The position numbers and the translations under genes are program-made. Positions 6,752 to 37,458 of a stretch of DNA of 64,000 nucleotides are shown here, piece by piece; positions within the stretch are counted from its first letter, which is position 1, and each line of letters starts with the position of its first letter. The DNA is taken from assembly GCA_965215055.1 (NCBI GenBank), contig OZ244046.1:1199202-1263201 (forward strand). The letters run 5' to 3'. The DNA is from Gammaproteobacteria bacterium. GTDB taxonomy: Bacteria > Pseudomonadota > Gammaproteobacteria > UBA4575. Below the pieces are notes generated by a model that did no database searches, was not told the origin of the DNA, and saw only the letters and a program-made list of their open reading frames with translations.

Positions 6752-6756
6752 TTACC

Positions 6757-9880: not shown

Positions 9881-9883
9881 TTT

Positions 9884-10461: not shown

Positions 10462-10466
10462 GTGTC

Positions 10467-15513: not shown

Positions 15514-15574
15514 ATCACGGCACTTCGTGCAAGGTGACGATAGCAACATTTGTGAAGGTGTTTGACAGGCGTTT

Positions 15575-16994: not shown

Positions 16995-17015
16995 TACCGG
17001 CAACTTGGAGTAATC

Positions 17016-17873: not shown

Positions 17874-17979
17874 TGAGGCGAAGTAGCTTTTTCAATTGAG
17901 GCAGGAATGTGTTTCATTTTATCCTGTTGAGGTTTTGCGATTCAGATTTTATACTGCGTGCTTTTTGAAAAGATGGTGA

Positions 17980-18411: not shown

Positions 18412-19281
<870 letters not shown>

Positions 19282-19292
19282 CAGTCAGCTGA

Positions 19293-19577
<285 letters not shown>

Positions 19578-19615
19578 AGCGCACCTGCTGTATCAAAAAC
19601 GGGTAAATTTAAAGC

Positions 19616-20086: not shown

Positions 20087-20094
20087 TTACATAC

Positions 20095-20631
20095 ATGTCA
20101 GCACTCACTACAACAGCCAGACCCTACGCGCGTGCGGCGTTTGCCACTGCGAGTGCAAGTGGCGAACAGCAAGAGTGGAGCACAATGCTGGCGTTTATGA
20201 CCGCCGTTGCACGTGATCCAGCCATGCATGCCCTGTTGGATAGCCCTGGTCTTTCCCGACGACAAGCGGCTGACATCTTTATCTCCGTTTGCAAAGAGCA
20301 AATTAATGAGCGTGGCAAAAATTTTATAAAACTGTTGGCTCAGAATGATCGCATTACCCTGCTACCGGAAATTACGGCACTGTATGAGCGTTATCGCGCG
20401 GATGCACAGGGCAGCATGGATGCGGAAGTCGTTTCTGCAAGCGGCATAGATGAGTTGCAATTGGCAAACATTGCCGCATCTTTGCAACGACGTCTAGGCA
20501 AGAAAATAAGGCTCAACTCGCACGTTGATGAAACGCTTATGGGCGGTGCAGTTATACGAGCAGGCGATTTGGTTATTGATGGCTCTGTTCGAGGGCGACT
20601 CAACACACTTGCTGCCGTGCTGGCAAATTGA
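20095..20631 (+). CDS. atpH: F0F1 ATP synthase subunit delta
   Basis: 178 aa, OSCP-like, in the conserved operon position. Confidence 0.9.
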   Translation: MSALTTTARPYARAAFATASASGEQQEWSTMLAFMTAVARDPAMHALLDSPGLSRRQAADIFISVCKEQINERGKNFIKLLAQNDRITLLPEITALYERYRADAQGSMDAEVVSASGIDELQLANIAASLQRRLGKKIRLNSHVDETLMGGAVIRAGDLVIDGSVRGRLNTLAAVLAN

Positions 20632-20667
20632 GTTATTAGGTTATGGGCAAAGTAAGAGGAATTGAAA

Positions 20668-22209
<1,542 letters not shown>

Positions 22210-22218
22210 TCACGAATA

Positions 22219-23082
22219 ATGGCTGGTGAAAAAGAAATACGCACGCAAATCGCGAGCATCAAAAATACCCAGAAGATTACCAAGGCAATGGAAATGGTAG
22301 CGGCAAGCAAAATGCGCAAGGCACAGGAGCGCATGAGCGCTACGCGCCCCTATTCGCAAAAGATGCTCAACGTAATCGGCCACCTTGCATATGCCCATGC
22401 CGAGTACAGTCACCCGTTTTTAATTGAACGCGCAGATATCAAGCGCGTCGGCTTTATCATAGTTTCCACGGATAGGGGGCTGTGTGGCGGGTTAAATATC
22501 AATTTGTTCAAAACCGCATTGAATGCCATGCAGGAGTGGCAGCAACGAAATGCAGCAATTGATCTTTGTCTGATAGGTGCCAAGGGCACCCAGTTTTTTA
22601 AGAAGTTTTCCGCCAATATTGTCTCTCAAGTCTCGCATTTGGGAGACGCTATCCACATAAGTAAATTGATCGGTACAGTTAAAACGATGTTGGATGCTTA
22701 TACTGAGGGAAATATTGACCGATTATTCCTGGTCGATAATGAATTTGTAAATACCATGACGCAAAAGCCGAAAATAATAACGCTGTTGCCGTTGGAGCCG
22801 GAAGATACCCAGGAACTGAAACATCATTGGGATTACATTTACGAACCTGATGCAAAGGCTGTTCTGGACGGACTGTTGACCCGTTATATCGAGTCTATCG
22901 TGTACCAGAGCGTGGTTGAAAATGTAGCGTGCGAAATGGCCGCGAGGATGATCGCCATGAAAAGCGCTTCGGACAATGCTGGTGAGCTTATTTCTGAATT
23001 GCAGCTTGTCTATAACAAGGCGCGTCAGGCAGCCATCACACAGGAAATTTCCGAGATTGTTGGTGGCGCGGCGGCCGTTTGA
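22219..23082 (+). CDS. atpG: F0F1 ATP synthase subunit gamma
   Basis: 287 aa with an [37 protein letters not shown]-terminus. Confidence 0.95.
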
Positions 23083-23089
23083 ATAATGA

Positions 23090-24499
<1,410 letters not shown>

Positions 24500-24508
24500 G
24501 CGAATCGT

Positions 24509-24931
24509 ATGGCAATGACAATGCATTTGGACGTGGTAAGCGCGGAAAAGGAACTTTTTTCCGGCACCGTCTTGGCGGTATTTGCCCCAGCCGTAATGGG
24601 AGACGTGGGTATCTACCCGCGCCATGCGCCTCTGGTTACTTCCTTGCGACCAGGGGAGTTGAAAATCGAGATTGAAGGACAGGAAGATCAGTATCTCTAT
24701 GTATCGGGTGGTATCTTGGAGGTACAGCCGCACGTGGTTACCGTGCTTTCGGATACGGCCATTCGTGCCGAGGACCTTGACGAGGCCGAGGCAATGCAAG
24801 CCAAACAGCGGGCGGAGGACGTGCTGAAAGATCAAAAGAGCGATTTTGATGCTGCCAAGGCAAGAGCAGAGCTTGCTCGAGCAGCCGAGCAACTGCGCAT
24901 GATCAAGAGAATGCGCGAACTGCGTAAGTAA
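24509..24931 (+). CDS. atpC: F0F1 ATP synthase subunit epsilon
   Basis: 140 aa. Last gene of the atp operon. Confidence 0.93.
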   Translation: MAMTMHLDVVSAEKELFSGTVLAVFAPAVMGDVGIYPRHAPLVTSLRPGELKIEIEGQEDQYLYVSGGILEVQPHVVTVLSDTAIRAEDLDEAEAMQAKQRAEDVLKDQKSDFDAAKARAELARAAEQLRMIKRMRELRK

Positions 24932-25148
24932 GCACCCGGGCCAACGAACGGCGCTTTACCTTCACCTTTCTTTCCCATTCGGCAACCGCGAGAACGCGGC
25001 AGTATGCACGGGCGAAGATAATACCAAAAGGCGGGAAAGGCATTCACGATAAGATATTTGCAAACCGTCTCCATCGCGGGGTTTGTTATACTTCGAGTTG
25101 CTTACGTCAATCTCTACACACACCCACGTAAACGCTGGAGTAGACTGC

Positions 25149-26516
25149 ATGAGCCTGCACGTTATTATTCTTGCTGCCGGACAGGGCCAACGCATGCACA
25201 GTGATTTGCCCAAGGTTTTGCATGAAGTAGCCGGTAAACCGATGCTGGAGCATGTAATAGGGTGTGCGCAAGAGTTATCCCCACAGGCAATCCACGTAGT
25301 GGTTGGCCATGGTGGTGATCAGGTCAGATCAGTCATTGGCGATACGACAATAAACTGGTGTCTTCAAGACAGGCAACTGGGCACGGGACACGCAGTGCAA
25401 CAGGCACTAACCAGTTTGCCGGATGATTCAGATGTTTTAATTTTGTATGGTGACGTACCGCTGTTGACACCCGCGACGCTACAGGCACTCGTCGAGCAGT
25501 TGCCCCGACGTGACCTCGTACTGCTATCCGCATTGTTGACCAACCCCACCGGTTACGGTCGCATCATGCGTGACGCGCAAAACAAAGTGCAAGGTATCGT
25601 TGAACAGGGAGACGCAGATGATGACGTTCTTGCCATTCGTGAAATCAACACGGGAATTCTTGCGACTCGTACGAATTTACTACGGGAATGGCTTGCATGT
25701 ATTGGTAATGACAACGTGCAACAGGAGTATTACTTGACGGATTGCGTTAAATTGGCCGTACAGGGACGGCACAAAGTGGAAGTGCTAGTCTGCGATGATT
25801 GCGATGAAATACGGGGGGTTAACGACAAGGCCCAACTTGCACGGATGGAACGGATTTATCAGCGCCGTATGGCAGAGAAATTAATGGGCGAAGGTGCGAC
25901 ACTGATGGATCCGAGTCGCATTGACGTGCGTGGAGAGCTTGATATCGGCAGAGACGTGGAAATCGACGTGAACACGGTATTCGCGGGAATCAATCATCTC
26001 GGCGACCGGGTTAGAGTCGGTGCCAATACCATCGTCATAAACAGCACGATCAAAGAAGGCACCTGCATCCATGAAAATTGCCATGTCGAGAACGCTGTTA
26101 TCGGGCACAACTGTGAGATAGGCCCGTTTGCGCGCATACGCCCGGATACAAGGCTTGCTGAAGAGGTCAAAATTGGCAATTTTGTCGAGATCAAAAAATC
26201 GAACGTTGCAACCAGGACCAAAATTAACCATCTAAGCTATATCGGTGACAGTGATTTAGGCGCAGATGTAAACATCGGTGCTGGAACGATTACCTGTAAT
26301 TACGACGGTGCGAATAAACACAGTACCATCATCGGCGACAATGTATTTGTTGGCTCTGATACGCAATTCATAGCGCCCGTCACTATCGGTGCCGGAGCTA
26401 CCATCGGTGCCGGATCAACGATCACCAAAGATGCACCGGAAGAAAAACTCACGCTCACGCGCAACAAGCAGGTCACGATAGATCATTGGCAACGTCCTGA
26501 AAAAATAAATAAATAA
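25149..26516 (+). CDS. glmU: bifunctional UDP-N-acetylglucosamine pyrophosphorylase / glucosamine-1-phosphate N-acetyltransferase GlmU
   Basis: Start MSLHVIILAAGQGQRM (LAAGxGxRM). C-terminal left-handed beta-helix hexapeptide repeats. Confidence 0.95.
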   Translation: MSLHVIILAAGQGQRMHSDLPKVLHEVAGKPMLEHVIGCAQELSPQAIHVVVGHGGDQVRSVIGDTTINWCLQDRQLGTGHAVQQALTSLPDDSDVLILYGDVPLLTPATLQALVEQLPRRDLVLLSALLTNPTGYGRIMRDAQNKVQGIVEQGDADDDVLAIREINTGILATRTNLLREWLACIGNDNVQQEYYLTDCVKLAVQGRHKVEVLVCDDCDEIRGVNDKAQLARMERIYQRRMAEKLMGEGATLMDPSRIDVRGELDIGRDVEIDVNTVFAGINHLGDRVRVGANTIVINSTIKEGTCIHENCHVENAVIGHNCEIGPFARIRPDTRLAEEVKIGNFVEIKKSNVATRTKINHLSYIGDSDLGADVNIGAGTITCNYDGANKHSTIIGDNVFVGSDTQFIAPVTIGAGATIGAGSTITKDAPEEKLTLTRNKQVTIDHWQRPEKINK

Positions 26517-26522
26517 ACGCTC

Positions 26523-28358
26523 ATGTGTGGAATTATTGGTGCTGTTGCAAATAGAGACGTGGCGCAAGTCTTGTTGGAAGGTCTGCATCGCCTGGAATAT
26601 CGAGGCTATGATTCCGCAGGCATGGTAGTGCTTGAGAACGGTGTGCTCAACCGCATTCGCAAAACGGGGAAGGTGCATGAATTAAGCAAGGCTCTGGACA
26701 AGTTTGCACTGGCGGGAGAACTGGGCATTGCCCATACTCGTTGGGCTACACATGGTGCACCGGCGGAAAATAATGCTCACCCGCATATTTGCAATAATCG
26801 GGTTGCCATTGTGCACAATGGCATTATCGAAAATTTTGAAACACTCAAAGCGCAACAAACTGCGCAAGGATTCAATTTTACCTCGGATACCGATACCGAA
26901 GTCATTGCCCACCAGATCGTCTTTTACCTGGACCAGGACAACGATTTTTTTACCGCCGTAAGTCGGGCAGCGGCAGACTTGAAAGGTGCTTACGCCCTGG
27001 GCGTGATCGATAAAAATAATCCTCAAAAATTGATTGCAGCACGCAATGGTAGCCCACTGGTTATCGGCAAAGGAGAAAACGAAAATTTTATCGCCTCCGA
27101 TGTACAGGCTTTAATAAGAGAGACACAAAAATTCATCTTTTTGGAAAACGGTGACATCGCGGAAATTACGAGCAACTCGATAAAAGTCGTCGATCAAACG
27201 AATGCACGTGTCAAGCGCAATGCAAAAACCAGCAAGCTATCCGCGAACGTTGGAGAAAAAGGCGATTACTCGCACTACATGCTTAAAGAGATTTATGAAC
27301 AGCCTCAGGCTATCGCTGATACGCTTGAAGGAAGGCTTGCCAACGGTCGGCTTGCACGGCAAATCCTCACGCCGCAGGCCGAGGAAACTTTACATCAAGC
27401 CAAGGCAATACAGATTGTTGCCTGCGGCACGAGCTATCATGCCGGGCTCGTCGCCAAGTTCTGGTTTGAAGAATTTGTGCGCCTTCCCTGTTCTGTAGAC
27501 GTTGCCAGTGAATTTCGTTATCGCAAGCACGTTATTCAACCGGACACGTTATTTATCGCTGTTTCCCAATCTGGTGAAACGGCAGACGTACTGGCCACGT
27601 TGCGACAGGCCAAACAAGAGGATTACATTGCTACGCTCGCTGTTTGCAACGTCCCGGAAAGCTCACTGGTGCGTGAATCGGATATAGTGTTGATGACTCA
27701 TGCCGGCCCCGAAATAGGAGTGGCTTCTACCAAAGCCTTTACCACACAACTGGTGGCGTTGCTGATGTTAGTGATTATCGCTAGCCGTCGTCACGAGACG
27801 CATGATGAACTTGAAAAAATGTTGGTCGAACAGCTTGTAACCTTGCCAACGCGAATTAATGAAGTGCTTGAACTCGATGCCAGAGTTAAAAAACTGGCCG
27901 AATACTATGGTGATAAAGAACATGCACTGTTCCTGGGTCGGGGTACTCATCATCCGGTGGCCAAAGAGGGCGCGCTGAAGCTGAAAGAGGTGTCCTACAT
28001 TCACGCCGAAGCTTACCCTGCCGGTGAATTAAAGCACGGCCCTATTGCCTTGATAGATACCAAGACACCTGTTGTTGCCGTGGCGCCCAATAACCAACTA
28101 TTAAAAAAACTGAAATCCAATATAGAAGAAGTACATGCACGTGGCGGTGTTCTACATGTATTTGCAGACGTCAATTCCAATCTTGCCGCCGCAGCCAAAA
28201 ATAACGTTACTGTTTTGGAAATTAATGCACCGGAAAATGCCGTCGCCCCGATCATTTTTAGCGTGCCTTTACAACTGCTTGCTTATCACGTCGCGGTTCT
28301 GAAAGGAGCCGACATTGATCAGCCCAGAAATTTAGCCAAATCTGTTACAGTGGAATAA
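26523..28358 (+). CDS. glmS: glutamine--fructose-6-phosphate aminotransferase GlmS
   Basis: 611 aa. N-terminal MCGIIGAV (Ntn Cys), two SIS domains, C-terminal ...SVTVE. Confidence 0.97.
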   Translation: MCGIIGAVANRDVAQVLLEGLHRLEYRGYDSAGMVVLENGVLNRIRKTGKVHELSKALDKFALAGELGIAHTRWATHGAPAENNAHPHICNNRVAIVHNGIIENFETLKAQQTAQGFNFTSDTDTEVIAHQIVFYLDQDNDFFTAVSRAAADLKGAYALGVIDKNNPQKLIAARNGSPLVIGKGENENFIASDVQALIRETQKFIFLENGDIAEITSNSIKVVDQTNARVKRNAKTSKLSANVGEKGDYSHYMLKEIYEQPQAIADTLEGRLANGRLARQILTPQAEETLHQAKAIQIVACGTSYHAGLVAKFWFEEFVRLPCSVDVASEFRYRKHVIQPDTLFIAVSQSGETADVLATLRQAKQEDYIATLAVCNVPESSLVRESDIVLMTHAGPEIGVASTKAFTTQLVALLMLVIIASRRHETHDELEKMLVEQLVTLPTRINEVLELDARVKKLAEYYGDKEHALFLGRGTHHPVAKEGALKLKEVSYIHAEAYPAGELKHGPIALIDTKTPVVAVAPNNQLLKKLKSNIEEVHARGGVLHVFADVNSNLAAAAKNNVTVLEINAPENAVAPIIFSVPLQLLAYHVAVLKGADIDQPRNLAKSVTVE

Positions 28359-28392
28359 TTTTGAATACCTATTAAACATACATAGACACTTC

Positions 28393-28418
28393 AACCGGCA
28401 GCTAGGTCATCACCGGTT
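28393..28418. terminator. possible bidirectional hairpin between convergent glmS and the DGQHR gene
   Basis: AACCGG (28393-28398) and CCGGTT (28413-28418) form a 6-bp stem around a 14-nt loop, followed by a pyrimidine-rich CTTTGCTACTTCTCT. Weak for an intrinsic terminator. Confidence 0.3.
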
Positions 28419-28450
28419 CTTTGCTACTTCTCTACCACAAAGTTTATGCT

Positions 28451-29584
28451 CTATATATCCAGTTCCGGTAATAACGATAGCAAATATTCTGCTAATCGGC
28501 GTTTTCCAGCAGCTGAACTGAAAGAGCCAGCGGCCCCTCTGTAACCTGTCCTCCAAAATTCTGCTCCCTGGACTGATACTCCCTCGCCATTCAACCCGTC
28601 TATATCATTCAAGGCTTTGTTTAGAAACGGTACATAGGACTCTGGTTCAAAGAGAGAGCCACCCTCAGAGCGGGCTAGGTCGAGCACAACTGGAAAAATT
28701 GAATGAAGCGCATCAACGCCAACTCCCTTTTGAATATTGTAATCTGATGGGAACTCAAAAGTTTTTGGCAGTACGCGACGAACGGCACGCCAATAGGCAT
28801 CTATTACCTGTGCCTGCCTTTCATGTGACCTGATATTTTGGAAAAGAGCAGTCTGTGTCAACAAGAGCTTGAGAGACCTAACGAACGATGCAGATGGTAC
28901 GGTCGTGTCACCCTTAGGCATGTTGGGCAATCGGATACGATCTTTCCAAGTACTCGAAGATTGCGACAAACGTTCGGTGAGAATTTGTGCATTGATTTCC
29001 CATGTCTTACCTCTCTCTTCAACCTCTTTCGCAAAAGAAGGATCGCTTGCAGCACGCGCTTTCATTAAATCTAAAGCAAGATCGGTTGGAACAGATTTTG
29101 CGTTCGAATTTACTACATGGAATTGCTTCATTTCACTACTTTCATCGGCACCGATCATGCACACGAAAGGAATTTTTATATTTTGAACATCTGCATCATA
29201 CTCATCTATCGCCTTTTGAAGAGCGAGAATCCGGTGTTGTCCATCAACCACCAGTAAGCAATGATCATTGGATGCCTTGTCTGGATTAAGGCAGAGGATA
29301 TAATTATCTGAACCATCCCTAGTGAGAACATCTTTCTCTTTTGCATTTCGCAAATTGAGCAGTACTGATGTTGGCAAATCCACAGTTTTCTTTGAGATTT
29401 CTCGTGCAAGTTGAGTGATTCGCGATTCTTTTGGATTACGTTGATACCCTGTTTCTTTGAGAACGTTTCGGTGGGGAACATGATGGTGTAATATCAATAC
29501 GCGAGCAGGCATTACACCAACAACGGTTATAATTTTATTTCGTAACGTTGGTCCCCGAACTACTCGCACTTTTGATGTACTCAT
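28451..29584 (-). CDS. DGQHR-domain protein (DndB-like, ParB/Srx-fold), solitary
   Basis: Contains the literal VVDGQHR motif together with upstream QR/NP-type motifs. ~377 aa from the ATG at 29584, which has an AAGGAAAAA RBS (the ORF track extends to 29623). By eye it is lower in GC than the flanking core genes. No dndCDE genes are nearby. Confidence 0.7.
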   Translation of the reverse strand: MSTSKVRVVRGPTLRNKIITVVGVMPARVLILHHHVPHRNVLKETGYQRNPKESRITQLAREISKKTVDLPTSVLLNLRNAKEKDVLTRDGSDNYILCLNPDKASNDHCLLVVDGQHRILALQKAIDEYDADVQNIKIPFVCMIGADESSEMKQFHVVNSNAKSVPTDLALDLMKARAASDPSFAKEVEERGKTWEINAQILTERLSQSSSTWKDRIRLPNMPKGDTTVPSASFVRSLKLLLTQTALFQNIRSHERQAQVIDAYWRAVRRVLPKTFEFPSDYNIQKGVGVDALHSIFPVVLDLARSEGGSLFEPESYVPFLNKALNDIDGLNGEGVSVQGAEFWRTGYRGAAGSFSSAAGKRRLAEYLLSLLPELDI

Positions 29585-29755
29585 AAATTTTTCCTTTGAA
29601 ATTAGGCTTAAAATCCTGCGCATTATACATAAAATAAAAAAGTGAGCAAGAATATAGAGCAGAAAAATTATGATTCCATCTTAGATCAAATTTAAAAATC
29701 TACTCTCCGGGTTTGGTTTATAATAGCGATAACACCTTCCGTCAGAGGGGTAATC

Positions 29756-30559
29756 GTGCTGGATTATCTGTATCACCATGAAATCTTGATTCGTTTGTCC
29801 AGCTTTGTCCTGGTATTTGCGATTTTCGCGATTTGGGAAGTGCTGAAACCGCGGCGCACTTGGTTGTACTCAAAAGGCGTGCGCTGGCTGAATAACCTTG
29901 GCATTGTCCTGTTGAATACTTTCACTATTCGGTTGGTAGTTCCTTTCACAGCTGCTGCGATGGCCGCAATCGCTCAGCAGCAAAATCTTGGACTGTTCAA
30001 CAGTGTACAAATGCCGGTATGGTTATCAATCATAATAGCCGTGCTGATAATGGACGCGGTACTTTATTTTCAACACCTGGCTTTCCATCATGTTCCTTTT
30101 CTGTGGCGACTGCACCGCATGCATCACGCCGACCTGGATTTTGACGTTACCACGGGAATACGATTTCACCCGTTTGAAATACTGCTGTCACTGATCGTAA
30201 AAATAGCCGTAGTACTTATGCTTGGTGCTCCGGTTATGGCAGTTGTTATTTTTGAAATCCTGTTGAATGCGACCTCCTTGTTCAATCACGCCAATATCCA
30301 TATTCCTGCAAGGGTGGATAAAGTATTACGCCGTTTTTTAGTAACTCCGGACATGCACCGAGTTCATCACTCGATTGTTATGAGCGAAACCAACAGCAAC
30401 TTCGGTTTCAACCTGCCGTGGTGGGATTACCTGTTCAAGACGTATCGCGATCAACCCGGTGCAGGTCATGTAAACATGACCATCGGCATTGAGCATTTCC
30501 GCACACCACGCGATCTTTGGCTGGATCTTTTACTGGCGCAGCCATTCAGAAACAAATAG
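29756..30559 (+). CDS. fatty acid hydroxylase / sterol desaturase family membrane protein
   Basis: 267 aa polytopic protein with His-box motifs (HHVPFLWRLHRMHHAD, HRVHH) characteristic of the FA hydroxylase superfamily. Confidence 0.75.
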   Translation: MLDYLYHHEILIRLSSFVLVFAIFAIWEVLKPRRTWLYSKGVRWLNNLGIVLLNTFTIRLVVPFTAAAMAAIAQQQNLGLFNSVQMPVWLSIIIAVLIMDAVLYFQHLAFHHVPFLWRLHRMHHADLDFDVTTGIRFHPFEILLSLIVKIAVVLMLGAPVMAVVIFEILLNATSLFNHANIHIPARVDKVLRRFLVTPDMHRVHHSIVMSETNSNFGFNLPWWDYLFKTYRDQPGAGHVNMTIGIEHFRTPRDLWLDLLLAQPFRNK

Positions 30560-30584
30560 TCGTTTCAATTAAAGCGCATAAGTT

Positions 30585-30660
<76 letters not shown>

Positions 30661-30769
30661 GCGCAAGTGGATGATAGCGCGTTGTAAAGAGGTTTGTATA
30701 TTTATGATCAGTGTCGCCGTGCACGGATGATAGCATCCATCTCGTCAATCAGATTATATGGGTGCCTTC

Positions 30770-31870
30770 TTATGGTAACTGATAGGCATACGGAGCTACT
30801 TGCGATGCGTGGATTGAATTGGTAACCAAGCCGACAAGCAGGTTGGCGGATGCAGTGCTCATCGCTATGCCGTTTCGATAGTGACCACTGTTGATGTAGA
30901 GGCCGGTTATTTCAGGGTGTTCGCATATATAGGGAACGCCACGCGAAGTACCAGGGCGAAGAGCTGCCCACTGTTGTTGCAGTCCAGCATTTTTCAGCCC
31001 GGGGCACATTTCCTGTGCCTTTGCATGAAGGTCGTCTGCTGCCTGTTGAGTAACGTTGCTTTCAAAACCGACGTGCTCCAGCGTGCTGCCACAAAGCACG
31101 AGGCCGTCTTTGCGCGAAATCAGATAAGTCTCCCCGTTTACCAGAATACGTGAGAACAGATGGGTCTGCGGTCTGTATAAAAGCATTTGCCCGCGCACGG
31201 GCACGATATCCGTTTTCTTGGCCGTAAGGGGCTGTAGAAGAGCTGTTGTCCAGGCACCTCCGCAAAGCACAACCTTATCTGCAAACAACTTCCCTTGTGG
31301 CGTAATCGCGCCCTGTACACGGCTCGATTGAAATAACAGCTTCTGCACCGCAAGATGCTCCAGAATTTTGACACCGCATCGTTGTAAAGACTTTTTAAGG
31401 GCTTGAATAAGGCGAGGGGACCGCACCTGTTTGACATTGGGTAAATAAAGAGCCTCGTGAAAATTGGGCAACAGATTTGGTTCAAGTTCGAATAGATCTC
31501 GTGAAGTTACGAATTCAATCGGCTCGTTGTTTTTACTTGCCCATCGTATTGCCTGGTTTTTCTCAGCCGTGTCCAGGACAATCATTCCGGAGCAAACAGC
31601 CTCGGGGTCTATTTTTGTTTCTTGTTTTAATTCCTCCGTAAGAGCAGGGAACAGGCGCTGGCTTTCAGTGATCAACATCCGTGCAGGTTGGCCCAGCCGC
31701 CACGGATGTAGCGATGCCAGGATTCCACCAGCCGCCCAAGTTGCCTTTCCGCCAAGATCGCCTTTTTCTATGATTGCAACTTGCAGGCCCGCAAAGTGTA
31801 AATTGCGTGCGGTGAGCATGCCCATGATTCCACCACCGATGACCAAGGTATCATAATAGTGCGTTTGCAT
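30770..31870 (-). CDS. thiO: FAD-dependent glycine oxidase ThiO
   Basis: 366 aa with a DTLVIGGGIMG FAD fold. The C-terminal block ALRPGTSRGVPYICEHPE...SGHYRNGI matches B. subtilis ThiO. Adjacent to thiS-thiG. Confidence 0.75.
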   Translation of the reverse strand: MQTHYYDTLVIGGGIMGMLTARNLHFAGLQVAIIEKGDLGGKATWAAGGILASLHPWRLGQPARMLITESQRLFPALTEELKQETKIDPEAVCSGMIVLDTAEKNQAIRWASKNNEPIEFVTSRDLFELEPNLLPNFHEALYLPNVKQVRSPRLIQALKKSLQRCGVKILEHLAVQKLLFQSSRVQGAITPQGKLFADKVVLCGGAWTTALLQPLTAKKTDIVPVRGQMLLYRPQTHLFSRILVNGETYLISRKDGLVLCGSTLEHVGFESNVTQQAADDLHAKAQEMCPGLKNAGLQQQWAALRPGTSRGVPYICEHPEITGLYINSGHYRNGIAMSTASANLLVGLVTNSIHASQVAPYAYQLP

Positions 31871-31900
31871 ATGGGGCAGTAGCGTTTATAGTGATAAAAC

Positions 31901-31974
31901 TGGAGCGGGTGATGGGAATCGAACCCACGTTCTCAGCTTGGGAAGCTGATGTTCTACCATTGAACTACACCCGC
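31901..31974 (-). tRNA. tRNA-Gly(CCC)
   Basis: Minus-strand 74 nt GCGGGTGTAGTTCAATGGTAGAACATCAGCTTCCCAAGCTGAGAACGTGGGTTCGATTCCCATCACCCGCTCCA. Anticodon loop TTCCCAA. Confidence 0.85.
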
Positions 31975-32053
31975 AATAAGTACCATTTTAGCGACTGTTG
32001 CAGCATTACCAATACGGTTTATTCATAGTAATGATATTTAATACGTACAAAAT

Positions 32054-32254
32054 ATGAAAATTACTGTAAATGGTGAGCAAACTGAGGTGGCGAACGGCAT
32101 GACCGCCTATCTGCTGCTTGAGGAACTCGGCCTGACGGAACAAAGGCTTGCGCTGGAGATCAACGAAGAAATAATACCGCGCAGTGTATTATCGCAACGT
32201 GTGCTACAAGCGGATGATCGTGTGGAAATCATTCATGCCGTCGGTGGAGGTTGA
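32054..32254 (+). CDS. thiS: sulfur carrier protein ThiS
   Basis: 66 aa ending in the diagnostic C-terminal GG (…IIHAVGGG). Ubiquitin-like size. Confidence 0.8.
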   Translation: MKITVNGEQTEVANGMTAYLLLEELGLTEQRLALEINEEIIPRSVLSQRVLQADDRVEIIHAVGGG

Positions 32255-32358
32255 GTTGGTTTTGAGGACAAAATAGGGGGAGTCATATTTCACGAAAGAT
32301 ATGAAAACGGTCGTGCAGTGTTGACTATATCAACACGATGTTGATTTAAGTAGTTGGA

Positions 32359-32459
32359 TTTTACTCTTTAGGGATAGTGTGGTCCGGCGGTTGCCAATAT
32401 AATTCTGCGGAAATGTTCAAGGTCTCTATCATGGCGGCATTGTCTGCTGTGACTTCAAC
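32359..32459. repeat. left copy of a ~100-bp imperfect direct repeat flanking the thiS/thiG insertion
   Basis: Aligns colinearly with 37288-37389 at roughly 80% identity. Shared blocks include TTTTACTCT, GGTTGCCAATA, ATTCTG and TTCAAGG. Weaker similarity extends ~30 bp further upstream (ATGTTG). Confidence 0.7.
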
Positions 32460-32555
32460 TTTTTTATGCTGCCCGCAGACGGCACCATTGACGATACTTC
32501 ATTCTGAGTGAAGCAGCCGAATTCGTAACAGTAGCAATCGGGCTGAGGTTATGTC

Positions 32556-33581
32556 ATGCTTTCTTTTAGTTGTACGACTCACCTGAAAAATTCTCTCAAC
32601 GCGAGAAATTACATGCGGGAACGCGCTTCAAGGAACCAGACGCTGTCATGCACAAGTGAGGATATCATGAGGCTGTCTCATGACATCATGCGGGTGGAAA
32701 CGACTGTTACCCAGAGAGATATCGAGGACCGAGTCATTGGTGGAGATATTTTCGATGTGGTGAGATATTTTCCCGCCTCATTTGTTGATCTCCTCATTTT
32801 AGACCCTCCGTATAATCTATCTAAGAATTTCAATGGGAATTTATTCAGAAAGAAAGAAAAACAAGAGTATGTTTTGTGGTTTGAGAGTGTTATTGAATTA
32901 CTAGACCCATTGATGAAGCCAACAGCGACAATATACGTATGCTCAGATTGGAAAACATCTACGCTTGTTTATCCGATATTGGAATCAAAATTTTCTGTGA
33001 GAAACAGAATTACATGGGAGCGAGAAAAAGGACGTGGTTCAAAGATAAACTGGAAGAATAATACGGAAGATGTCTGGTTTTGTACAAAGTCTGACCGCTA
33101 CTTTTTTGATGTTGATGCAGTAAAGCTAAAGAAGAAAGTTCTTGCACCCTATAGAATAAATGGAAAGCCGAAAGACTGGAGACAGGAGCAGAAGGGTAAT
33201 TATCGCTTGACACACCCATCCAATATTTGGACTGATTTGACGATCCCGTTCTGGTCGATGCCGGAAAACACCGATCACCCCACTCAAAAACCAGAGAAAT
33301 TGATTGCGAAACTTATTCTCGCGAGTTCGAAGAAAGGAGACTTTGTGTTTGATCCGTTCCTTGGTAGCGGCACGACTGCGGTTGTAGCAAAGAAATTGTC
33401 AAGGCGCTGGTGTGGGGTTGAGCTTAATTCTGAATACCTTTGCTGGGCACTAAAACGTGTCGTTGCCGTAACGAAAAACTCGACAATCCAGGGATATGAA
33501 AACGGTGTGTTTTGGGAGAGAAACTCACTCCCCAATCGAAATAAGGAAGCCTATAACTTTCAGGAAACCTTGTTCCCGTGA
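32556..33581 (+). CDS. type II DNA methyltransferase, beta-class (N6-adenine or N4-cytosine; DPPY motif)
   Basis: Motif IV ILDPPYNL lies N-terminal and motif I FDPFLGSGTTAVVA lies C-terminal, which is the beta-group order. AT-rich coding sequence. The true start may be one of several internal Met codons. Confidence 0.8.
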   Translation: MLSFSCTTHLKNSLNARNYMRERASRNQTLSCTSEDIMRLSHDIMRVETTVTQRDIEDRVIGGDIFDVVRYFPASFVDLLILDPPYNLSKNFNGNLFRKKEKQEYVLWFESVIELLDPLMKPTATIYVCSDWKTSTLVYPILESKFSVRNRITWEREKGRGSKINWKNNTEDVWFCTKSDRYFFDVDAVKLKKKVLAPYRINGKPKDWRQEQKGNYRLTHPSNIWTDLTIPFWSMPENTDHPTQKPEKLIAKLILASSKKGDFVFDPFLGSGTTAVVAKKLSRRWCGVELNSEYLCWALKRVVAVTKNSTIQGYENGVFWERNSLPNRNKEAYNFQETLFP

Positions 33582-34246
33582 GATCGGGTTTTTATTATAA
33601 AGGCTACTACAAAGCGATAGCTTCAAATATCAGAGAGTATATCAACTCGTTACAAGATTTCCTTTCGCCTGAAACGGCATGTAGTCCTAGAGCTGTTGGC
33701 GATGCACTTGAATCACTTGTGGCAGAAAAGTTTGATACCTTCCTTGGGGATTGGTGCAAAGAATACTCGAGAGATTTTGCCCGCCGCGCCATGGCTGACA
33801 TGGCATTTACTGATAAGGAAGGCATTTATTCCGTAATAGATGTCAAAACTCACAGAGAAGACACCAAATTCAACATGCCTAACCTTACTTCAGTAGAACG
33901 ATTGGCTCGGTTTTATGAGTCTGATGCCAATGTTTTCTCCCTTATCATAATTAAATATTCGATTGAAGGCACAAATATCGAAGTATCGGAGGTTTTATTT
34001 TCACCAATCGAATTTCTGGACTGGAGTTGCTTGACTGTAGGTGCGCTTGGCTGGGGCCAGATTCAGATCGCGAATTCCAATGATATCCGTATTATAGATA
34101 AATTCTCACGAAAGAAATGGATGTTACAGCTATGTGATGTGTTAATGGAATTTTATCCGAGAGAAATTGGCAAAATCCGGGACAGGATCGATCGCTTCAA
34201 CACGGTAAGGGAGTATTGGGAGTCAAAAGAAGACGTTTGGACTTGA
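33578..34246 (+). CDS. putative type II restriction endonuclease (PD-(D/E)XK-like)
   Basis: 222-aa ORF. Its GTG start overlaps the methyltransferase stop (GTGA). Candidate catalytic motif FTD...VIDVK. No family I can name with certainty. Assignment rests on linkage, size and motif. Confidence 0.5.
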   Translation: MRSGFYYKGYYKAIASNIREYINSLQDFLSPETACSPRAVGDALESLVAEKFDTFLGDWCKEYSRDFARRAMADMAFTDKEGIYSVIDVKTHREDTKFNMPNLTSVERLARFYESDANVFSLIIIKYSIEGTNIEVSEVLFSPIEFLDWSCLTVGALGWGQIQIANSNDIRIIDKFSRKKWMLQLCDVLMEFYPREIGKIRDRIDRFNTVREYWESKEDVWT

Positions 34247-34282
34247 TTAACGCAAATAATTGAGAGAGCCAACCTATAAACC

Positions 34283-35404
34283 ATGAACTCGGAACGCCAT
34301 ATGGATCGCCTGCCCCCTGAGTGGACGTGGTGGCAACGTGATCTCGTTATTTTAGGTGAGTTGCTGGTGTACGGTACTGGCATTGCTTTTGCAGCGATCT
34401 GCCTGAGCCTCCTATTTGAGAATCCACTACAATTAAAATGCGAATGTTGGTTGTATGTACTTGGAATCCTATTTCTAGTTGGGCTCTATATGGTTCGTCT
34501 CCTGCGGCATCCTTTTCGAGTACATGAAGAGAGGCTCGTTGATCGCACGGAAGTCGAAGCATTATTTAAGCAGGCATCTCCAGATGCCGGTAAAAATCTC
34601 CGTAAGCTTATTAAATGTCTCGAACACGAAGGTCCAAGCACATGGACGGAATATAGAATTCTACCCGTAGAGCAGGATGCATTGAAACGGCTTTCTGCCA
34701 AAGATTTGATTGCTAAAGCGCATGCGCGACTAGACGATCTCAAGGAATACGATGAAAAAAGAGGTGAGGAAGAGAAAGAGTACTTTAATAAGCGTGAAAA
34801 GCGATTACACAAGTCCATTAAGACGTTAAAAGAGGAGTTAAAAGAGACCAGTTCATCAGATACGGAGAAAGTTAAGCGTAGAAAAAAAGCAAAAAAAGCC
34901 TTGAGAGCAGACTTGGGAATGCTTCTTGAAACGCTCGCCGATTATGACAAGAACTGGGCAATTGGATCGGAAATATTGCGAGCATTATTGATAGTCATTT
35001 CATTCACTATACCCATTTTATTGGTTTTGGGAGTAGCTCCGGTTCTTATGCCACCAAGAGAAAGTCTTGGATTTGTCAATTGGGCACTTTTGGGGGTAGC
35101 GGGATCACTCACAGCAGTATTACGAAAGCTTTATTTGGGTAGTAAAGTGGAGGTTGGAGATACAGAAGGAAAAAACGAGTTATACCAAACTATCAAGGGT
35201 GCAGTTTTGGGTTTGGTCTCCGGGGTTCTAGTCTTTGCGATGCTCTCGGGTAATATTATATCGAAGGGAACCATAGTGCCTGATGTGGATAGCTGTGACT
35301 TAAAGCAGATTTATCTCTCTGTTTTCTGGGCTTTTATGGCTGGGTTCGCGTTTGAAAATTTCTTCGATAAAGTTCAACGAGAACAGATCGGAAAATACAA
35401 CTGA
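34283..35404 (+). CDS. hypothetical membrane protein with central coiled-coil/charged region
   Basis: 373 aa. Two N-terminal hydrophobic helices, then a ~130-aa highly charged K/E-rich segment (KEYDEKRGEEEKEYFNKREKRLHKSIKTLKEELKE...KVKRRKKAKKALRADL), then 3-4 C-terminal TM helices. No recognisable family. Confidence 0.5.
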   Translation: MNSERHMDRLPPEWTWWQRDLVILGELLVYGTGIAFAAICLSLLFENPLQLKCECWLYVLGILFLVGLYMVRLLRHPFRVHEERLVDRTEVEALFKQASPDAGKNLRKLIKCLEHEGPSTWTEYRILPVEQDALKRLSAKDLIAKAHARLDDLKEYDEKRGEEEKEYFNKREKRLHKSIKTLKEELKETSSSDTEKVKRRKKAKKALRADLGMLLETLADYDKNWAIGSEILRALLIVISFTIPILLVLGVAPVLMPPRESLGFVNWALLGVAGSLTAVLRKLYLGSKVEVGDTEGKNELYQTIKGAVLGLVSGVLVFAMLSGNIISKGTIVPDVDSCDLKQIYLSVFWAFMAGFAFENFFDKVQREQIGKYN

Positions 35405-35408
35405 TAAA

Positions 35409-35816
35409 ATGGTTGGAAAATCAGTCCATAAACATAGCCCGCATGCTAAAGTCTACGGCTTCGAGCTAATTATCGATTTGAAGAATTGTAGTCCATCTCT
35501 TTTCAATCGTAAATCTCTCGACAATTACTTTAGTCAACTGTGTGATCTTATTTCAATGAAGAAGGCAGAGGTGTATTTCTGGGACGATGTTGGAGTAGCA
35601 CCAGAGGAACAACAGACCGCCCCGCATACAAAGGGGACCTCGGCAGTCTGCTTTATTTTGACGAGTTCGATAGTAATCCATACGCTCGATGTTTTGAGAA
35701 CCGTGTATGTCAATATTTTTTCTTGTAAAGTGTTCGATCCTAATATTGCGGTGGAATTTACTAGAGATTGGTTCAGCGGTGAGGTCCAAAATTCCACGTT
35801 TATCGAACGGCATTAG
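35409..35816 (+). CDS. SpeH/AdoMetDC-fold (pyruvoyl-dependent decarboxylase-like) small protein
   Basis: ~135 aa from the ATG at 35409 (the ORF track starts at 35352 and overlaps the previous gene). Aligns with class-1 bacterial/archaeal S-adenosylmethionine decarboxylase proenzymes. HAKVYGFELIIDLKNC matches the GRHVIAELWDC-type N-terminus. The conserved His (IVIHTL) and Cys (IFSCKV) are present. The usual E-S-H processing site is replaced by T-S-S. Confidence 0.6.
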   Translation: MVGKSVHKHSPHAKVYGFELIIDLKNCSPSLFNRKSLDNYFSQLCDLISMKKAEVYFWDDVGVAPEEQQTAPHTKGTSAVCFILTSSIVIHTLDVLRTVYVNIFSCKVFDPNIAVEFTRDWFSGEVQNSTFIERH

Positions 35817-35830
35817 TGAGGGGGATCCTA

Positions 35831-37189: not shown

Positions 37190-37287
37190 AAATTTCTGAC
37201 CAAAATTTGGCACTTGTTGAGTCCGAGCAGAAAGTGCTCCGAATACAACCCAAATCCAATGCCAAAATGTTGGTCACTGTGAGGGGC

Positions 37288-37389
37288 TTTTACTCTGTGA
37301 GAGTGGTGTGATCCGACGGTTGCCAATACGATTCTGAGGAGATATTCAAGGCCTCCAACACGGTGGTATCGCCCGCTTCAATTATTGAC
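37288..37389. repeat. right copy of the ~100-bp imperfect direct repeat, immediately upstream of thiG
   Basis: See the left copy at 32359-32459. Confidence 0.7.
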
Positions 37390-37458
37390 TTTGGCATTCG
37401 ACATGGAATCTCCCAGCCTTACAGGCAGTGTGTTGATTTCTGGTAAACTGTAGGGGTT

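What the first reader, a model, noticed from the sequence alone, without database searches (positions are those of the whole stretch)
28451..29584. Solitary DGQHR-domain (DndB-like) gene inserted at the glmS 3' end with no dndCDE partners
The protein carries the literal DGQHR motif of the DndB/TIGR03187 family (ParB/sulfiredoxin fold). In characterised systems DndB is the regulator encoded with the dndCDE phosphorothioation genes. Here it stands alone, is lower in GC than its neighbours by eye, and is convergent with glmS. It sits about 90 bp past the glmS stop, which is the position of attTn7, the classic safe-harbour for Tn7-like elements. No transposase or Tn7 end repeats are present. Standalone DGQHR proteins are poorly understood and recur in defence-island-like contexts. 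This could be a minimal single-gene system or a remnant.
Basis: partly seen in the sequence, partly recalled or inferred. Interest (0 to 1): 0.65.

Follow-up and report, generated by a model that had tools for sequence, protein, structure and literature searches.

The report
Solitary self-regulated DGQHR gene islet
A single foreign gene for a ParB-like (DGQHR-domain) DNA-binding NTPase sits just after glmS in this strain only, with its own promoter studded with short palindromes. It belongs to an uncharacterised family that moves between bacterial phyla as a one-gene unit, and it is neither DndB nor DpdB.

Summary
Window 28451-29584 (-) encodes an intact 377-aa protein with a literal DGQHR motif. 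It passes the DGQHR-domain model (TIGR03187, 101.6 bits against a cutoff of 58.85). It fails the DndB model (15.8 against 328) and the DpdB model (67.8 against 300).

The gene is a strain-specific insertion. A conspecific contig (98.5% nt identity) and a 91%-identical relative both lack it. Their homology to the window breaks at the glmS stop codon and resumes at 29703. The gene is not a remnant: dN/dS is 0.06-0.22.

It belongs to a compact clade of about 373 clusters at 50% identity. Across more than 80 loci from many phyla the gene is always solitary and has no conserved neighbour. The drop in GC is confined to the gene and about 600 bp upstream of it.

The new finding is upstream. Clade members carry arrays of palindromic hexamers spaced 13-14 bp apart and overlapping a sigma-70 promoter (34/83 loci against 22/4261 control windows). 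The hexamer type follows the protein subclade, not the host. The window has the TGC(G/T)CA version.

My best reading is an NTP-gated, sequence-specific DNA-binding protein that represses its own promoter. Its cellular role is probably related to conflict with mobile DNA, but this is unproven. I found no Tn7, integron or IS features and no nuclease motif.

The parts
28451..29584 (-). Gene for a 377-aa stand-alone DGQHR-domain protein. The N-terminal part is a ParB/Srx-type NTP-binding domain (about residues 1-165). The C-terminal part is an all-helical domain (about residues 166-377).
   Evidence: ORF and translation. Start confirmed by 25 homologues. TIGR03187 101.6 bits, above cutoff; PF14072 43.3 bits. 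AF2 model pLDDT 91.7. Top seven Foldseek PDB hits (five entries) are ParB-N-type structures. dN/dS 0.06-0.22.
28358..29702 (.). Strain-specific segment, the inserted module. It consists of 85-93 bp downstream of the gene, the gene itself, and 118 bp of upstream promoter region. It is absent from close relatives.
   Evidence: blastn against L095: L095 1-9835 matches window 18520-28357, and L095 10222-12805 matches window 29703-32260, at 98-98.6% identity. blastn against L090: L090 3-3305 matches window 25063-28365, and L090 3370-4307 matches window 29703-30640, at 91% identity. L090 has only 64 bp here; L095 has 386 bp carrying an unrelated small ORF.
29656..29661 (-). Distal hexamer site S1 (TGCTCT on the gene strand), 13 bp from S2.
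   Evidence: Sequence. Cluster scan. Aligns with the TGCTCA sites of subclade relatives.
29643..29649 (-). Hexamer site S2 (TGCTCA on the gene strand, 29643-29648), overlapping a -35-like TTGCTC (29644-29649).
   Evidence: Sequence. The family-wide anchored consensus also places a hexamer on the -35 box. The -35 matches only 3 of 6 positions, so the consensus scan did not list this promoter.
29617..29627 (-). Proximal hexamer site S3 (the perfect palindrome TGCGCA, 29617-29622), abutting a perfect -10 TATAAT (29622-29627). The spacer to the -35 is 16 nt.
   Evidence: Sequence. In the alignment of 7 subclade promoters, four of the seven invariant columns are the G, C, A and following G of the proximal-site block that ends this hexamer.
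29592..29596 (-). Ribosome-binding site AAGGA, 7 nt before the ATG at 29584.
   Evidence: Sequence read directly.
26523..28358 (+). glmS, the conserved left flank. Homology with relatives ends at or a few bases after its stop codon.
   Evidence: ORF. Homologues 94-100% identical. Breakpoints.
29756..30559 (+). Fatty-acid hydroxylase family gene, the conserved right flank. It lies directly next to glmS in relatives that lack the insert.
   Evidence: PF04116, 1.4e-26. Gene order glmU-glmS-FA_hydroxylase in L090 and L095.

Best explanation
The feature is an intact, horizontally acquired one-gene module. It was inserted into the glmS / FA-hydroxylase spacer of this strain.

It encodes a stand-alone DGQHR-domain protein. 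This has a ParB/sulfiredoxin-type NTP-binding domain with invariant QR, DGQHR and FxxxN motifs, followed by a helical domain with no recognisable nuclease motif.

The module brings its own promoter. In that promoter, three copies of the near-palindromic hexamer TGC(G/T)C(A/T) sit 13 or 26 bp apart, on the -35 box and next to the -10 box.

Proposed mechanism (inferred): the protein is a dimeric, NTP-gated, sequence-specific DNA binder. It binds cooperatively to the hexamer array and represses its own transcription, as DndB and KorB do at their own promoters.

The module contains nothing else, so whatever it does in the cell is done by this protein alone. The most plausible role is in conflicts with mobile DNA: binding or clamping foreign or modified DNA, or controlling a modification or defence function encoded elsewhere.

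Shown here: the insertion, the solitary state across the family, purifying selection, the fold class, and the conserved upstream arrays that co-vary with protein subclade.

Inferred only: that this protein binds the arrays, that it binds or hydrolyses NTP, and any defence role.
For: Insertion: empty or alternative alleles in L090 and L095, with the same right breakpoint at 29703.

Foreign origin: gene GC is below flank GC in 68 of 74 loci (mean -7.3 points). The dip is confined to the gene and about 600 bp upstream in 51 loci. The closest homologues (60-77% identity) are in Alphaproteobacteria, Arenicellales, Chloroflexota/Dehalococcoidia and Rhodobacteraceae. Nucleotide similarity to them is confined to the ORF.

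Solitary across the family: no neighbour cluster is found in more than 13 of 78 loci. The 148 immediate neighbours hit 144 Pfam families, none more than 4 times. All strong hits are 360-400 aa and match end to end.

Functional gene: dN/dS 0.06-0.22. Y47, Q48, R49, D114, Q116, H117, R118, E148, E151, N159 and K163 are invariant.

Fold: AF2 pLDDT 91.7. Top PDB hits are ParB-N, ParB-CDP, KorB, PadC and BrxU. BFVD hits to proteins annotated as ParB, DndB or GmrS-N reach E = 3e-6 (4e-11 for the best, unnamed, entry).

Operator arrays: three or more RGATCY/GGACCC/GGGTCC hexamers lie in the upstream 250 nt of 34/83 loci, against 22/4261 control windows. The anchored consensus has sites 13-14 bp apart, flanking and overlapping TTGACA, with a TAnnnT -10. 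Site type matches that of the nearest protein relative in 29 of 35 cases (permutation p = 0.004). The TGCKCA type is shared by the window with L001 and L010 and L012-L015; the last five are Chloroflexota MAGs and L001's host is unidentified. The window has only two such periodic clusters in 64 kb, one of them exactly at this promoter.

Precedents from papers: DndB is a homodimer that binds palindromes in its own promoter (PMC4507180). DpdB is an ATPase dimer whose model encloses a DNA-sized tunnel (PMC10164549). A DndB-like protein binds ATP and GTP (bioRxiv 10.1101/2025.10.10.680097).
Against: No experiment links the protein to the hexamer arrays. Another factor could bind them.

The motif classes were defined after seeing the data, so the p-values are optimistic. 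A generic test for periodic repeats did not separate upstream regions from real control windows (p = 0.07-0.1).

The window's own array is short: two exact sites and one near-match. Its -35 matches only 3 of 6 positions.

Structural matches to solved ParB domains are weak (E >= 0.01, TM 0.2-0.3). The C-terminal domain has no PDB match at all, so the DNA-binding surface is unknown.

Evidence for a defence role is thin. Only about 10% of neighbours look defence-related. No PADLOC single-gene system matches. The hexamers are not avoided in host DNA.
Confidence: 0.55

Rival explanations
1. It is an ordinary DndB- or DpdB-type accessory protein that works in trans with a phosphorothioation or 7-deazaguanine modification cluster located elsewhere in the genome.
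For: It belongs to the same domain superfamily. The DpdB profile is the best specific match (67.8 bits in NCBIfam; 73 bits in PADLOC). Only 64 kb of the genome could be searched.
Against: It scores far below both equivalog cutoffs (300 and 328). Its motif is DGQHR, not DpdB's DGQQR (PMC10164549). No Dnd, Dpd or Ssp protein is in the window. No DndC-like or TGT-like family occurs twice or more among 148 immediate neighbours in over 80 loci. The gene travels alone as a 1.3-2 kb low-GC islet and is absent from a conspecific strain. That is hard to reconcile with an obligate partner of a large cluster.
Confidence: 0.1
2. It is a single-protein restriction or abortive-infection nuclease of the GmrSD / SspE / BrxU kind. 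A DGQ(H/Q)R NTPase domain would drive an attached nuclease that degrades invading DNA.
For: There is a weak GmrSD_N match (18.1 bits). BrxU appears among the PDB fold hits. Some loci lie beside pAgo-SIR2, OLD/AriA-like, Thoeris TIR or R-M genes. The gene is strain-variable, horizontally transferred and low in GC.
Against: There is no DUF1524/HNH domain hit. No conserved (D/E)HxxP or Rx4-6H motif is present. The C-terminal domain model (pLDDT 92.5) has no match to SspE, BrxU or any nuclease in the PDB (best E = 1.4). The GmrSD_N score is below the cutoff of 33.2.
Confidence: 0.15
3. It is cargo, or the last remnant, of a Tn7-like element that inserted at the attTn7 site downstream of glmS.
For: The insert begins within 0-20 bp of the glmS stop codon. 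The site is variable: three different alleles occur in close relatives.
Against: There are no tns genes anywhere in the window. There are no repeated 22-bp end sites and no target-site duplication. The only end-to-end inverted repeat has 21-nt arms at 81% complementarity with a 9-10 nt exact core, which is at chance level. Of the fetched DGQHR-clade loci compared with glmS (tblastn), only the window's copy lies next to a glmS gene.
Confidence: 0.04
4. It is a minimal selfish mobile element. The DGQHR protein would act on its own binding sites, in the manner of a transposase or homing enzyme, to move its gene.
For: One-gene islets lie in many unrelated intergenic sites across phyla. In the window the 10-mer TGCTCTATAT occurs in inverted orientation at both ends of the gene, at 28447-28456 and 29652-29661.
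Against: Across the family there is no excess of sites downstream of the gene (3/27 loci against 14% of control windows). Nucleotide similarity between copies stops at the ORF. There is no target duplication. The 10-mer pair is at chance level, and the downstream copy overlaps the stop codon.
Confidence: 0.04
5. It is a decaying pseudogene or a non-functional leftover of a lost dnd-type cluster.
For: It stands alone where characterised relatives sit in operons.
Against: The reading frame is full length with all motifs intact. dN/dS is 0.06-0.22 between copies. An RBS and a -10 box are present. The whole clade is solitary.
Confidence: 0.02

Closest known systems
DndB (DptB) of the dndBCDE phosphorothioation operon (TIGR03233; Salmonella enterica Cerro 87, PMC4507180)
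   Same: It has a DGQHR-domain architecture with the literal DGQHR motif. DndB is a homodimer that binds palindromic boxes in its own promoter and represses itself. The module here likewise has palindromic repeats on its own promoter.
   Different: The score is 15.8 bits against a cutoff of 328. No dndCDE lies in cis in the window, and no dnd-type family recurs among the neighbours of more than 80 related loci. The operator form differs: arrays of hexamers 13-14 bp apart rather than two TACG-N10-CGTA boxes. The gene is mobile on its own.
DpdB of the Dpd 7-deazaguanine DNA modification system (NF041060; PMC10164549)
   Same: It is the best-scoring specific family (67.8 bits). Both have a ParB-like NTPase domain plus a helical C-terminal domain without a nuclease motif. 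DpdB is a dimeric, DNA-stimulated ATPase.
   Different: The score is far below the cutoff of 300. The motif is DGQHR rather than DGQQR. There is no DpdA (TGT-like) partner or dpdC-K genes nearby. For this clade the C-terminal domain shows no detectable similarity to SspE or any other PDB structure.
KorB / ParB family CTP-dependent DNA clamps (PDB 8qa9, 6sdk, 5k5d)
   Same: Their N-terminal NTP-binding domains are the best structural matches. They load at short palindromic sites, and KorB represses promoters, including its own operon.
   Different: The DGQHR motif replaces the GERRxR box. No ParB HTH or C-terminal dimerisation domain was detected. There is no ParA or KorA partner. The structural scores are weak (E >= 0.01). 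The gene is a chromosomal one-gene islet rather than part of a partition operon.
GmrSD / SspE / BrxU type IV restriction enzymes (DUF262 + DUF1524)
   Same: They have a related DGQ(Q/H)R NTPase domain, are single-polypeptide systems, and are horizontally mobile.
   Different: There is no DUF1524/HNH domain and no (D/E)HxxP motif. The GmrSD_N match is below cutoff.

Membership tests
DGQHR domain superfamily (TIGR03187 / Pfam PF14072, ParB clan) | Profile score above the curated cutoff | tested here: met
   TIGR03187: 101.6 bits against 58.85, residues 35-311. PF14072: 43.3 bits against 29.1.
DGQHR domain superfamily (TIGR03187 / Pfam PF14072, ParB clan) | QR pair, DGQHR pentapeptide and FxxxN motif (as listed in PMC4619093) | tested here: met
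   Q48-R49, D114-G-Q-H-R118 and F155...N159 are all invariant in 25 homologues.
DGQHR domain superfamily (TIGR03187 / Pfam PF14072, ParB clan) | ParB/sulfiredoxin-type fold of the N-terminal domain | tested here: met
DndB (TIGR03233 equivalog) | Score at or above the equivalog cutoff of 328 bits | tested here: not met
   15.8 bits. PADLOC DndB: 17.8 bits.
DndB (TIGR03233 equivalog) | Encoded with dndCDE (operon dndBCDE) | tested here: not met
   No Dnd proteins among the window proteins. No dnd-type family recurs among 148 neighbours.
DndB (TIGR03233 equivalog) | Binds palindromic boxes in its own promoter and autoregulates | not testable with these tools
   Candidate sites are present (29617-29661). 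Binding needs EMSA or footprinting.
DpdB (NF041060 equivalog) | Score at or above the cutoff of 300 bits | tested here: not met
   67.8 bits.
DpdB (NF041060 equivalog) | DGQQR motif and an adjacent dpdA (TGT-like) gene | tested here: not met
   The motif is DGQHR. No Dpd hit in the window, and no TGT-type family recurs among neighbours.
GmrSD / SspE / BrxU (DUF262 + DUF1524 type IV restriction) | N-terminal DUF262 (GmrSD_N) above cutoff, together with a C-terminal DUF1524/HNH domain carrying (D/E)HxxP | tested here: not met
   GmrSD_N: 18.1 bits against 33.2. No DUF1524 hit. No conserved [DE]HxxP. The C-domain has no PDB match.
ParB / KorB partition-type CTPase clamps | GERRxR box II, an HTH DNA-binding domain, and a ParA- or KorA-type partner | tested here: not met
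   DGQHR stands in place of GERRxR. No ParB-family sequence hit in the PDB. No partner gene in the 1.34-kb module. The window's chromosomal parAB (16176-17873) is a separate conserved locus.
Tn7-like element at attTn7 | tnsABC(D/E) genes, repeated TnsB-binding sites at both ends, and a 5-bp target duplication | tested here: not met
   No such ORFs. No repeat families at the ends. No duplication at the breakpoints. Only the position after glmS fits.
Integron gene cassette | attC site: an imperfect palindrome of 57-141 nt that folds as single-stranded DNA, downstream of the ORF | tested here: not met
   The region downstream of the stop folds at -6.5 and -7.6 kcal/mol (the two strands), z = -1.36 for both. 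No long inverted repeat is present.

The most novel reading that the evidence does not exclude
The clade could be a previously unrecognised kind of self-contained, one-gene system. A ParB-like (DGQHR) NTPase would recognise arrays of short palindromes, keep itself repressed through such an array on its own promoter, and act alone against mobile DNA. For example, it might load on similar arrays on phage or plasmid DNA and clamp or silence them, in a KorB-like way and without any nuclease. This would explain why it spreads between phyla as a 1.3-2 kb islet and is strain-variable.
Probability: 0.2. Interest if true: 0.7.

Novelty: new variant of a known kind. Interest (0 to 1): 0.5.

Why it matters
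The characterised DGQHR/ParB-fold proteins reviewed here (DndB, DpdB, SspE, GmrSD, BrxU) either work within multi-gene DNA-modification systems or are fused to a nuclease. This clade shows the bare domain as an independent unit under strong purifying selection. It is transferred across phyla, and each copy brings its own promoter with an operator-like array whose sequence co-varies with the protein.

That gives a directly testable DNA target: TGC(G/T)CA arrays for the window's subclade and RGATCY or GGACCC arrays for others. It is also a simple system, one protein and one 60-bp site, for asking what a DGQHR NTPase does on DNA. If the module proves to be a defence or silencing system, it would add a nuclease-free, ParB-like mechanism to the list.

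The locus also documents a hot spot just after glmS, with three different alleles in near-identical genomes.

Tried and rejected
- Tn7 or attTn7 cargo: no tns genes, no end repeats, no target duplication.
- Integron cassette: no attC-like fold downstream of the gene.
- Structured RNA: no Rfam family in 27800-30200.
- IS-like element with terminal binding sites: the 10-mer TGCTCTATAT flanks the gene in the window, but across the family there is no excess of sites downstream.
- Restriction-like targeting of single hexamers: the hexamers are not depleted in host DNA. Observed/expected ratios are 0.9-1.2 in the window, and 0.82 against 0.85 in GATC-type and other loci.
- HEPN RNase or HNH nuclease in the C-terminal half: no conserved Rx4-6H or (D/E)HxxP, and no structural match.
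- A conserved partner gene: all-against-all clustering of neighbours, and Pfam and PADLOC scans of 148 immediate neighbours, found none. N6/N4 methyltransferases lie within 10 kb in 8 related loci and in the window itself. They are only 20-47% identical to one another apart from two near-duplicate pairs, and differ in length and orientation, so they are not a co-transferred partner.
- Conserved flanks or ends: nucleotide similarity to homologous loci stops at the ORF.
- Phage or plasmid carriage: only remote relatives (24-29% identity) in the phage, plasmid and IMG/VR collections.
- Generic repeat statistics: the maximum count of any exact hexamer, and periodic chains with one mismatch, did not separate upstream regions from controls. 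Only the motif-specific cross-locus tests did.
- Looking up the window's own DGQHR protein in the contig index failed.
Full report
WHAT IS THERE

The ORF at 28451-29623 (-) is real. Alignment with 24 homologues fixes the start at 29584 (MSTSKV..., 377 aa). An AAGGA ribosome-binding site lies 7 nt upstream of that start. The pentapeptide DGQHR occupies residues 114-118.

The protein passes the DGQHR-domain model TIGR03187 (101.6 bits, cutoff 58.85) and Pfam DndB PF14072 (43.3 bits, cutoff 29.1). It falls far short of the specific equivalogs:
- DpdB: 67.8 bits against 300.
- DGQHR_dnd_1: 41.6 bits against 450.
- DndB: 15.8 bits against 328.
PADLOC gives the same order, with DpdB at 73 bits and DndB at 18 bits, and no candidate single-gene system matches.

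The gene is convergent with glmS (26523-28358), with 92 nt between the stop codons. It is followed, divergently, by a fatty-acid-hydroxylase-family gene (29756-30559). Gene GC is 43.3% against 47.6% in the flanks. GC3 is 0.36 against 0.47-0.57 in the neighbours.

The 64-kb window is the replication-origin region of a gammaproteobacterium. It contains dnaA, dnaN, gyrB, rnpA, yidC, mnmEG, parAB, the atp operon and glmUS. A PADLOC scan of the other 54 predicted proteins found no Dnd, Dpd, Ssp or Brx component.

IT IS A STRAIN-SPECIFIC INSERTION

The window's glmS has close relatives in public assemblies.

A 4.3-kb contig (L090) has glmS 94% identical at the protein level and is 91% identical at the nucleotide level. 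It carries glmU-glmS-FA_hydroxylase with only a 124-bp spacer. By blastn, L090 3-3305 matches window 25063-28365, and L090 3370-4307 matches window 29703-30640.

A conspecific contig (L095) is 98.4-98.6% identical over 17.8 kb. It matches window 18520-28357 and then resumes at 29703. Between those points it has 386 bp with an unrelated 102-aa ORF that carries a signal peptide.

So three alleles occupy the site immediately after the glmS stop codon in near-identical genomes. The 1345-bp segment 28358-29702 is present only in the window. It contains the DGQHR gene, 85-93 bp downstream of it and 118 bp upstream, and nothing else.

More distant relatives (glmS 77-78% identical) have still other genes after glmS.

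The gene is not conserved at this locus even within the species.

IT IS NOT A REMNANT, AND THE WHOLE CLADE IS SOLITARY

The protein has hundreds of full-length relatives. A profile search of 1.84 billion cluster representatives finds 373 at E <= 1e-30, 1054 at E <= 1e-10 and 2142 at E <= 1e-3. The strong hits that are full length are about 350-430 aa and match end to end, with no fusions. Pairwise dN/dS between copies is 0.06-0.22.

The closest relatives (60-77% identity) are in MAGs labelled Alphaproteobacteria, Arenicellales, Chloroflexota/Dehalococcoidia, Rhodobacteraceae and Candidatus Spongiihabitans. That is much closer than the hosts are to one another, so the gene has moved across phyla.

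The genomic contexts differ from locus to locus:
- All-against-all clustering of ORFs within +/-10 kb of 78 loci found no neighbour family in more than 13 loci. The largest is generic ABC ATPases.
- The 148 immediate neighbours hit 144 different Pfam families, none more than four times.
- Roughly one neighbour in ten looks defence-related: helicase/ResIII, DNA methyltransferases, OLD/AriA-like ATPases, Thoeris TIR, Fic and a pAgo-SIR2 pair. The rest are housekeeping genes.

The gene's GC is below that of its flanks in 68 of 74 loci (mean -7.3 points). In 51 loci with full flanks, the dip is confined to the gene (-7.9 points) and the 600 bp upstream (-6.2 points). It is gone beyond that. Nucleotide similarity between the window and homologous loci stops at the ORF ends.

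The clade therefore spreads as a one-gene islet of about 1.3-2 kb. It is essentially absent from known plasmids and phages, where only relatives at 24-29% identity occur.

THE PROTEIN

AlphaFold2 gives a confident model (pLDDT 91.7, pTM 0.84). It has an N-terminal alpha/beta domain (about residues 1-165) and a helical C-terminal domain.

The best Foldseek PDB hits are ParB-N domains: pNOB8 ParB (5k5d), ParB-CDP (6sdk), KorB (8qa9) and PadC (6ryk). BrxU follows. All are weak (E >= 0.01, TM 0.2-0.3). Against viral predicted structures the matches reach E = 4e-11. The best-scoring entries that carry a name include GmrSD-N, DNA-sulfur-modification-associated, ParB-like nuclease and AIPR proteins. 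No solved structure is related by sequence.

The invariant residues cluster in the N-domain: Y47, Q48, R49, R55, D69, R79, D114, Q116, H117, R118, C142, E148, E151, Q154, N159 and K163. These include the QR, DGQHR and FxxxN motifs that define the domain (PMC4619093). By analogy with ParB, SspE and DpdB, they form the NTP site (PMC10164549).

The C-terminal half has no conserved Rx4-6H (HEPN) or (D/E)HxxP (DUF1524/HNH) motif. Modelled on its own it is still confident (pLDDT 92.5, pTM 0.90). It has no significant PDB match (best E = 1.4). I therefore see no basis for calling it a nuclease.

THE NEW OBSERVATION: A CONSERVED OPERATOR-LIKE ARRAY UPSTREAM

K-mer counting in the 200 nt upstream of 80 clade genes showed strong enrichment (upstream against downstream):
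- CCTTGAC: 22 loci against 4.
- AAGGATC: 15 against 0.
- GTCAAGGA: 14 against 0.

Anchoring 28 loci on YCTTGAC gives the consensus gg..cC-N7-GGaTCC-N7-GGatCCTTGACA-N2-Ga.ccc ... TA...T. This is three to five hexamers 13-14 bp apart. One overlaps the upstream edge of a TTGACA -35 box. One lies in the spacer. A -10 box sits at the right distance.

Within a locus the hexamers are of one type, such as GGATCC/AGATCY, GGACCC/GGGTCC or GAACCC. Between loci the type changes.

Comparison with all 250-nt windows more than 1.5 kb from the gene in the same loci:
- Three or more RGATCY/GGACCC/GGGTCC hexamers: 34/83 upstream regions against 22/4261 controls (Fisher 2.5e-47).
- A hexamer fused to TTGAC: 17/83 against 14/4261.

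Site type agrees with that of the nearest protein relative in 29 of 35 cases (permutation p = 0.004).

The subclade that includes the window (59-100% identity: the window itself, L001, and the Chloroflexota/Dehalococcoidia loci L010 and L012-L015) uses TGC(G/T)CA instead. The consensus is TGCTCA-N7-TTGCGCA-N7-TGCGCATGATA. Three or more exact sites occur in 4/83 upstream regions against 8/4261 controls.

In the window the sites are:
- S1: TGCTCT, 29656-29661.
- S2: TGCTCA, 29643-29648, overlapping a -35-like TTGCTC.
- S3: the perfect palindrome TGCGCA, 29617-29622, abutting a perfect TATAAT (29622-29627).
The spacings are 13 and 26 bp. Only two such periodic clusters exist in the 64 kb; 0.04 are expected.

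All of this lies inside the inserted segment, so the module brings its own regulated promoter.

Caveats:
- The motif classes were chosen after seeing the data.
- Generic repeat statistics did not separate upstream regions from real controls.
- The window's array is short.
- The consensus promoter scan did not list this promoter, because the -35 matches only 3 of 6 positions.

HOW IT MOST LIKELY WORKS

The only thing these loci share is the protein. The sites co-vary with it across host phyla. The simplest reading is that the DGQHR protein itself binds the array, as a dimer on each palindrome and cooperatively along the array, and represses its own promoter.

This is what DndB does at TACG-N10-CGTA boxes in the dnd promoter (PMC4507180). 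KorB-type ParB proteins do the same at their operators. NTP binding or hydrolysis by the ParB-type domain would gate DNA binding or clamp closure. DpdB is a DNA-stimulated ATPase dimer modelled around a DNA-sized tunnel (PMC10164549). A DndB-like protein binds ATP and GTP (bioRxiv 10.1101/2025.10.10.680097).

These steps are inferred, not shown.

What the protein does beyond regulating itself is open. Several features point to a role in conflicts with mobile DNA: strain variability, cross-phylum transfer, the low-GC islet form, occasional defence-island neighbours, and the fact that the characterised relatives reviewed here serve modification or restriction systems. On the other side, single hexamers are not avoided in host DNA, there is no nuclease motif, and most copies sit among housekeeping genes.

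ALTERNATIVES CONSIDERED

- A trans-acting DndB or DpdB is disfavoured by the profile scores, the solitary mobile form and the absence from a conspecific strain. It cannot be excluded without the genome.
- Tn7 cargo, an integron cassette, an IS-like element and a structured RNA were tested and not supported.
- Nearby N6/N4 methyltransferases (8 related loci plus the window) are heterogeneous and are not a co-transferred partner.

VERDICT

The gene is a member of the DGQHR-domain superfamily. It is not DndB, DpdB or a GmrSD-type enzyme. It represents an uncharacterised stand-alone clade with a conserved self-promoter array. I found no description of this in the paper library: a full-text search for DGQHR returned 8 papers, none on solitary genes.

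I rate it a new variant of a known kind, with moderate interest of 0.5. The evolutionary facts are solid. The regulatory prediction is specific and easy to test. The biological role remains unknown.

Noticed in passing
window 32261-37402: A second strain-specific insertion of 5.1 kb at 40-43% GC splits thiS (32054-32254) from thiG (37459-38286). It carries an N6/N4 adenine DNA methyltransferase (32556-33581), an overlapping 222-aa ORF with only a weak type II REase hit (33578-34246), a 373-aa membrane protein, an AdoMet-decarboxylase-like ORF and a DUF3326 protein. In the conspecific contig L095, thiS and thiG are 109 bp apart.
   Followed up: partly
L095 9836-10221 and L090 3306-3369, compared with window 28358-29702: The spot just after the glmS stop codon is a hot spot with three alleles in near-identical genomes. 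L090 has a 64-bp spacer. L095 has a 102-aa ORF with a signal peptide (MKIRLVFLLIILMTSHSAVCGE...). The window has the DGQHR module. All three share the right breakpoint at window 29703. A further close relative's contig (L094) ends exactly at glmS.
   Followed up: partly
window 28447-28456 and 29652-29661: The 10-mer TGCTCTATAT occurs in inverted orientation at both ends of the DGQHR gene. One copy overlaps the stop codon and the other is operator site S1. It is about chance level for a 1.3-kb region and is not seen as a family-wide pattern.
   Followed up: yes
window 1898-1939: This is the only other periodic cluster of TGC(G/T)C(A/T) hexamers in the 64 kb (TGCGCT, TGCGCT, TGCGCA at spacings of 26 and 15 bp). 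It lies inside the coding region of the 957-2348 permease-like ORF. It may be chance or a second binding site.
   Followed up: no
L003 10001-14375 (also L004, L005): A 67%-identical DGQHR homologue sits 247 bp upstream of, and on the same strand as, a Piwi-domain protein (633 aa) followed by a SIR2_2 protein. GIY-YIG and MmeI-fragment genes and a 2000-aa ORF lie nearby. This is a defence-island context unlike the window's.
   Followed up: no
L007, L008, L009, L016, upstream 150 nt of the DGQHR gene: Some loci that my three motif classes scored as having no array show other repeated palindromes. L008 and L009 have TAATCA...TGATTA around a TTGACA box. L007 and L016 have (A/T)GATC(A/T) sites at 12-13 bp spacing. 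The 41% figure for arrays is therefore a lower bound.
   Followed up: partly
window 1-20000: The window spans the chromosomal origin region: gyrB, dnaN and dnaA on the minus strand, then rnpA, yidC, mnmE, mnmG, rsmG, parA, parB and the atp operon on the plus strand. Both strain-specific insertions therefore lie within about 30 kb of the dnaA gene (the presumed origin region).
   Followed up: no
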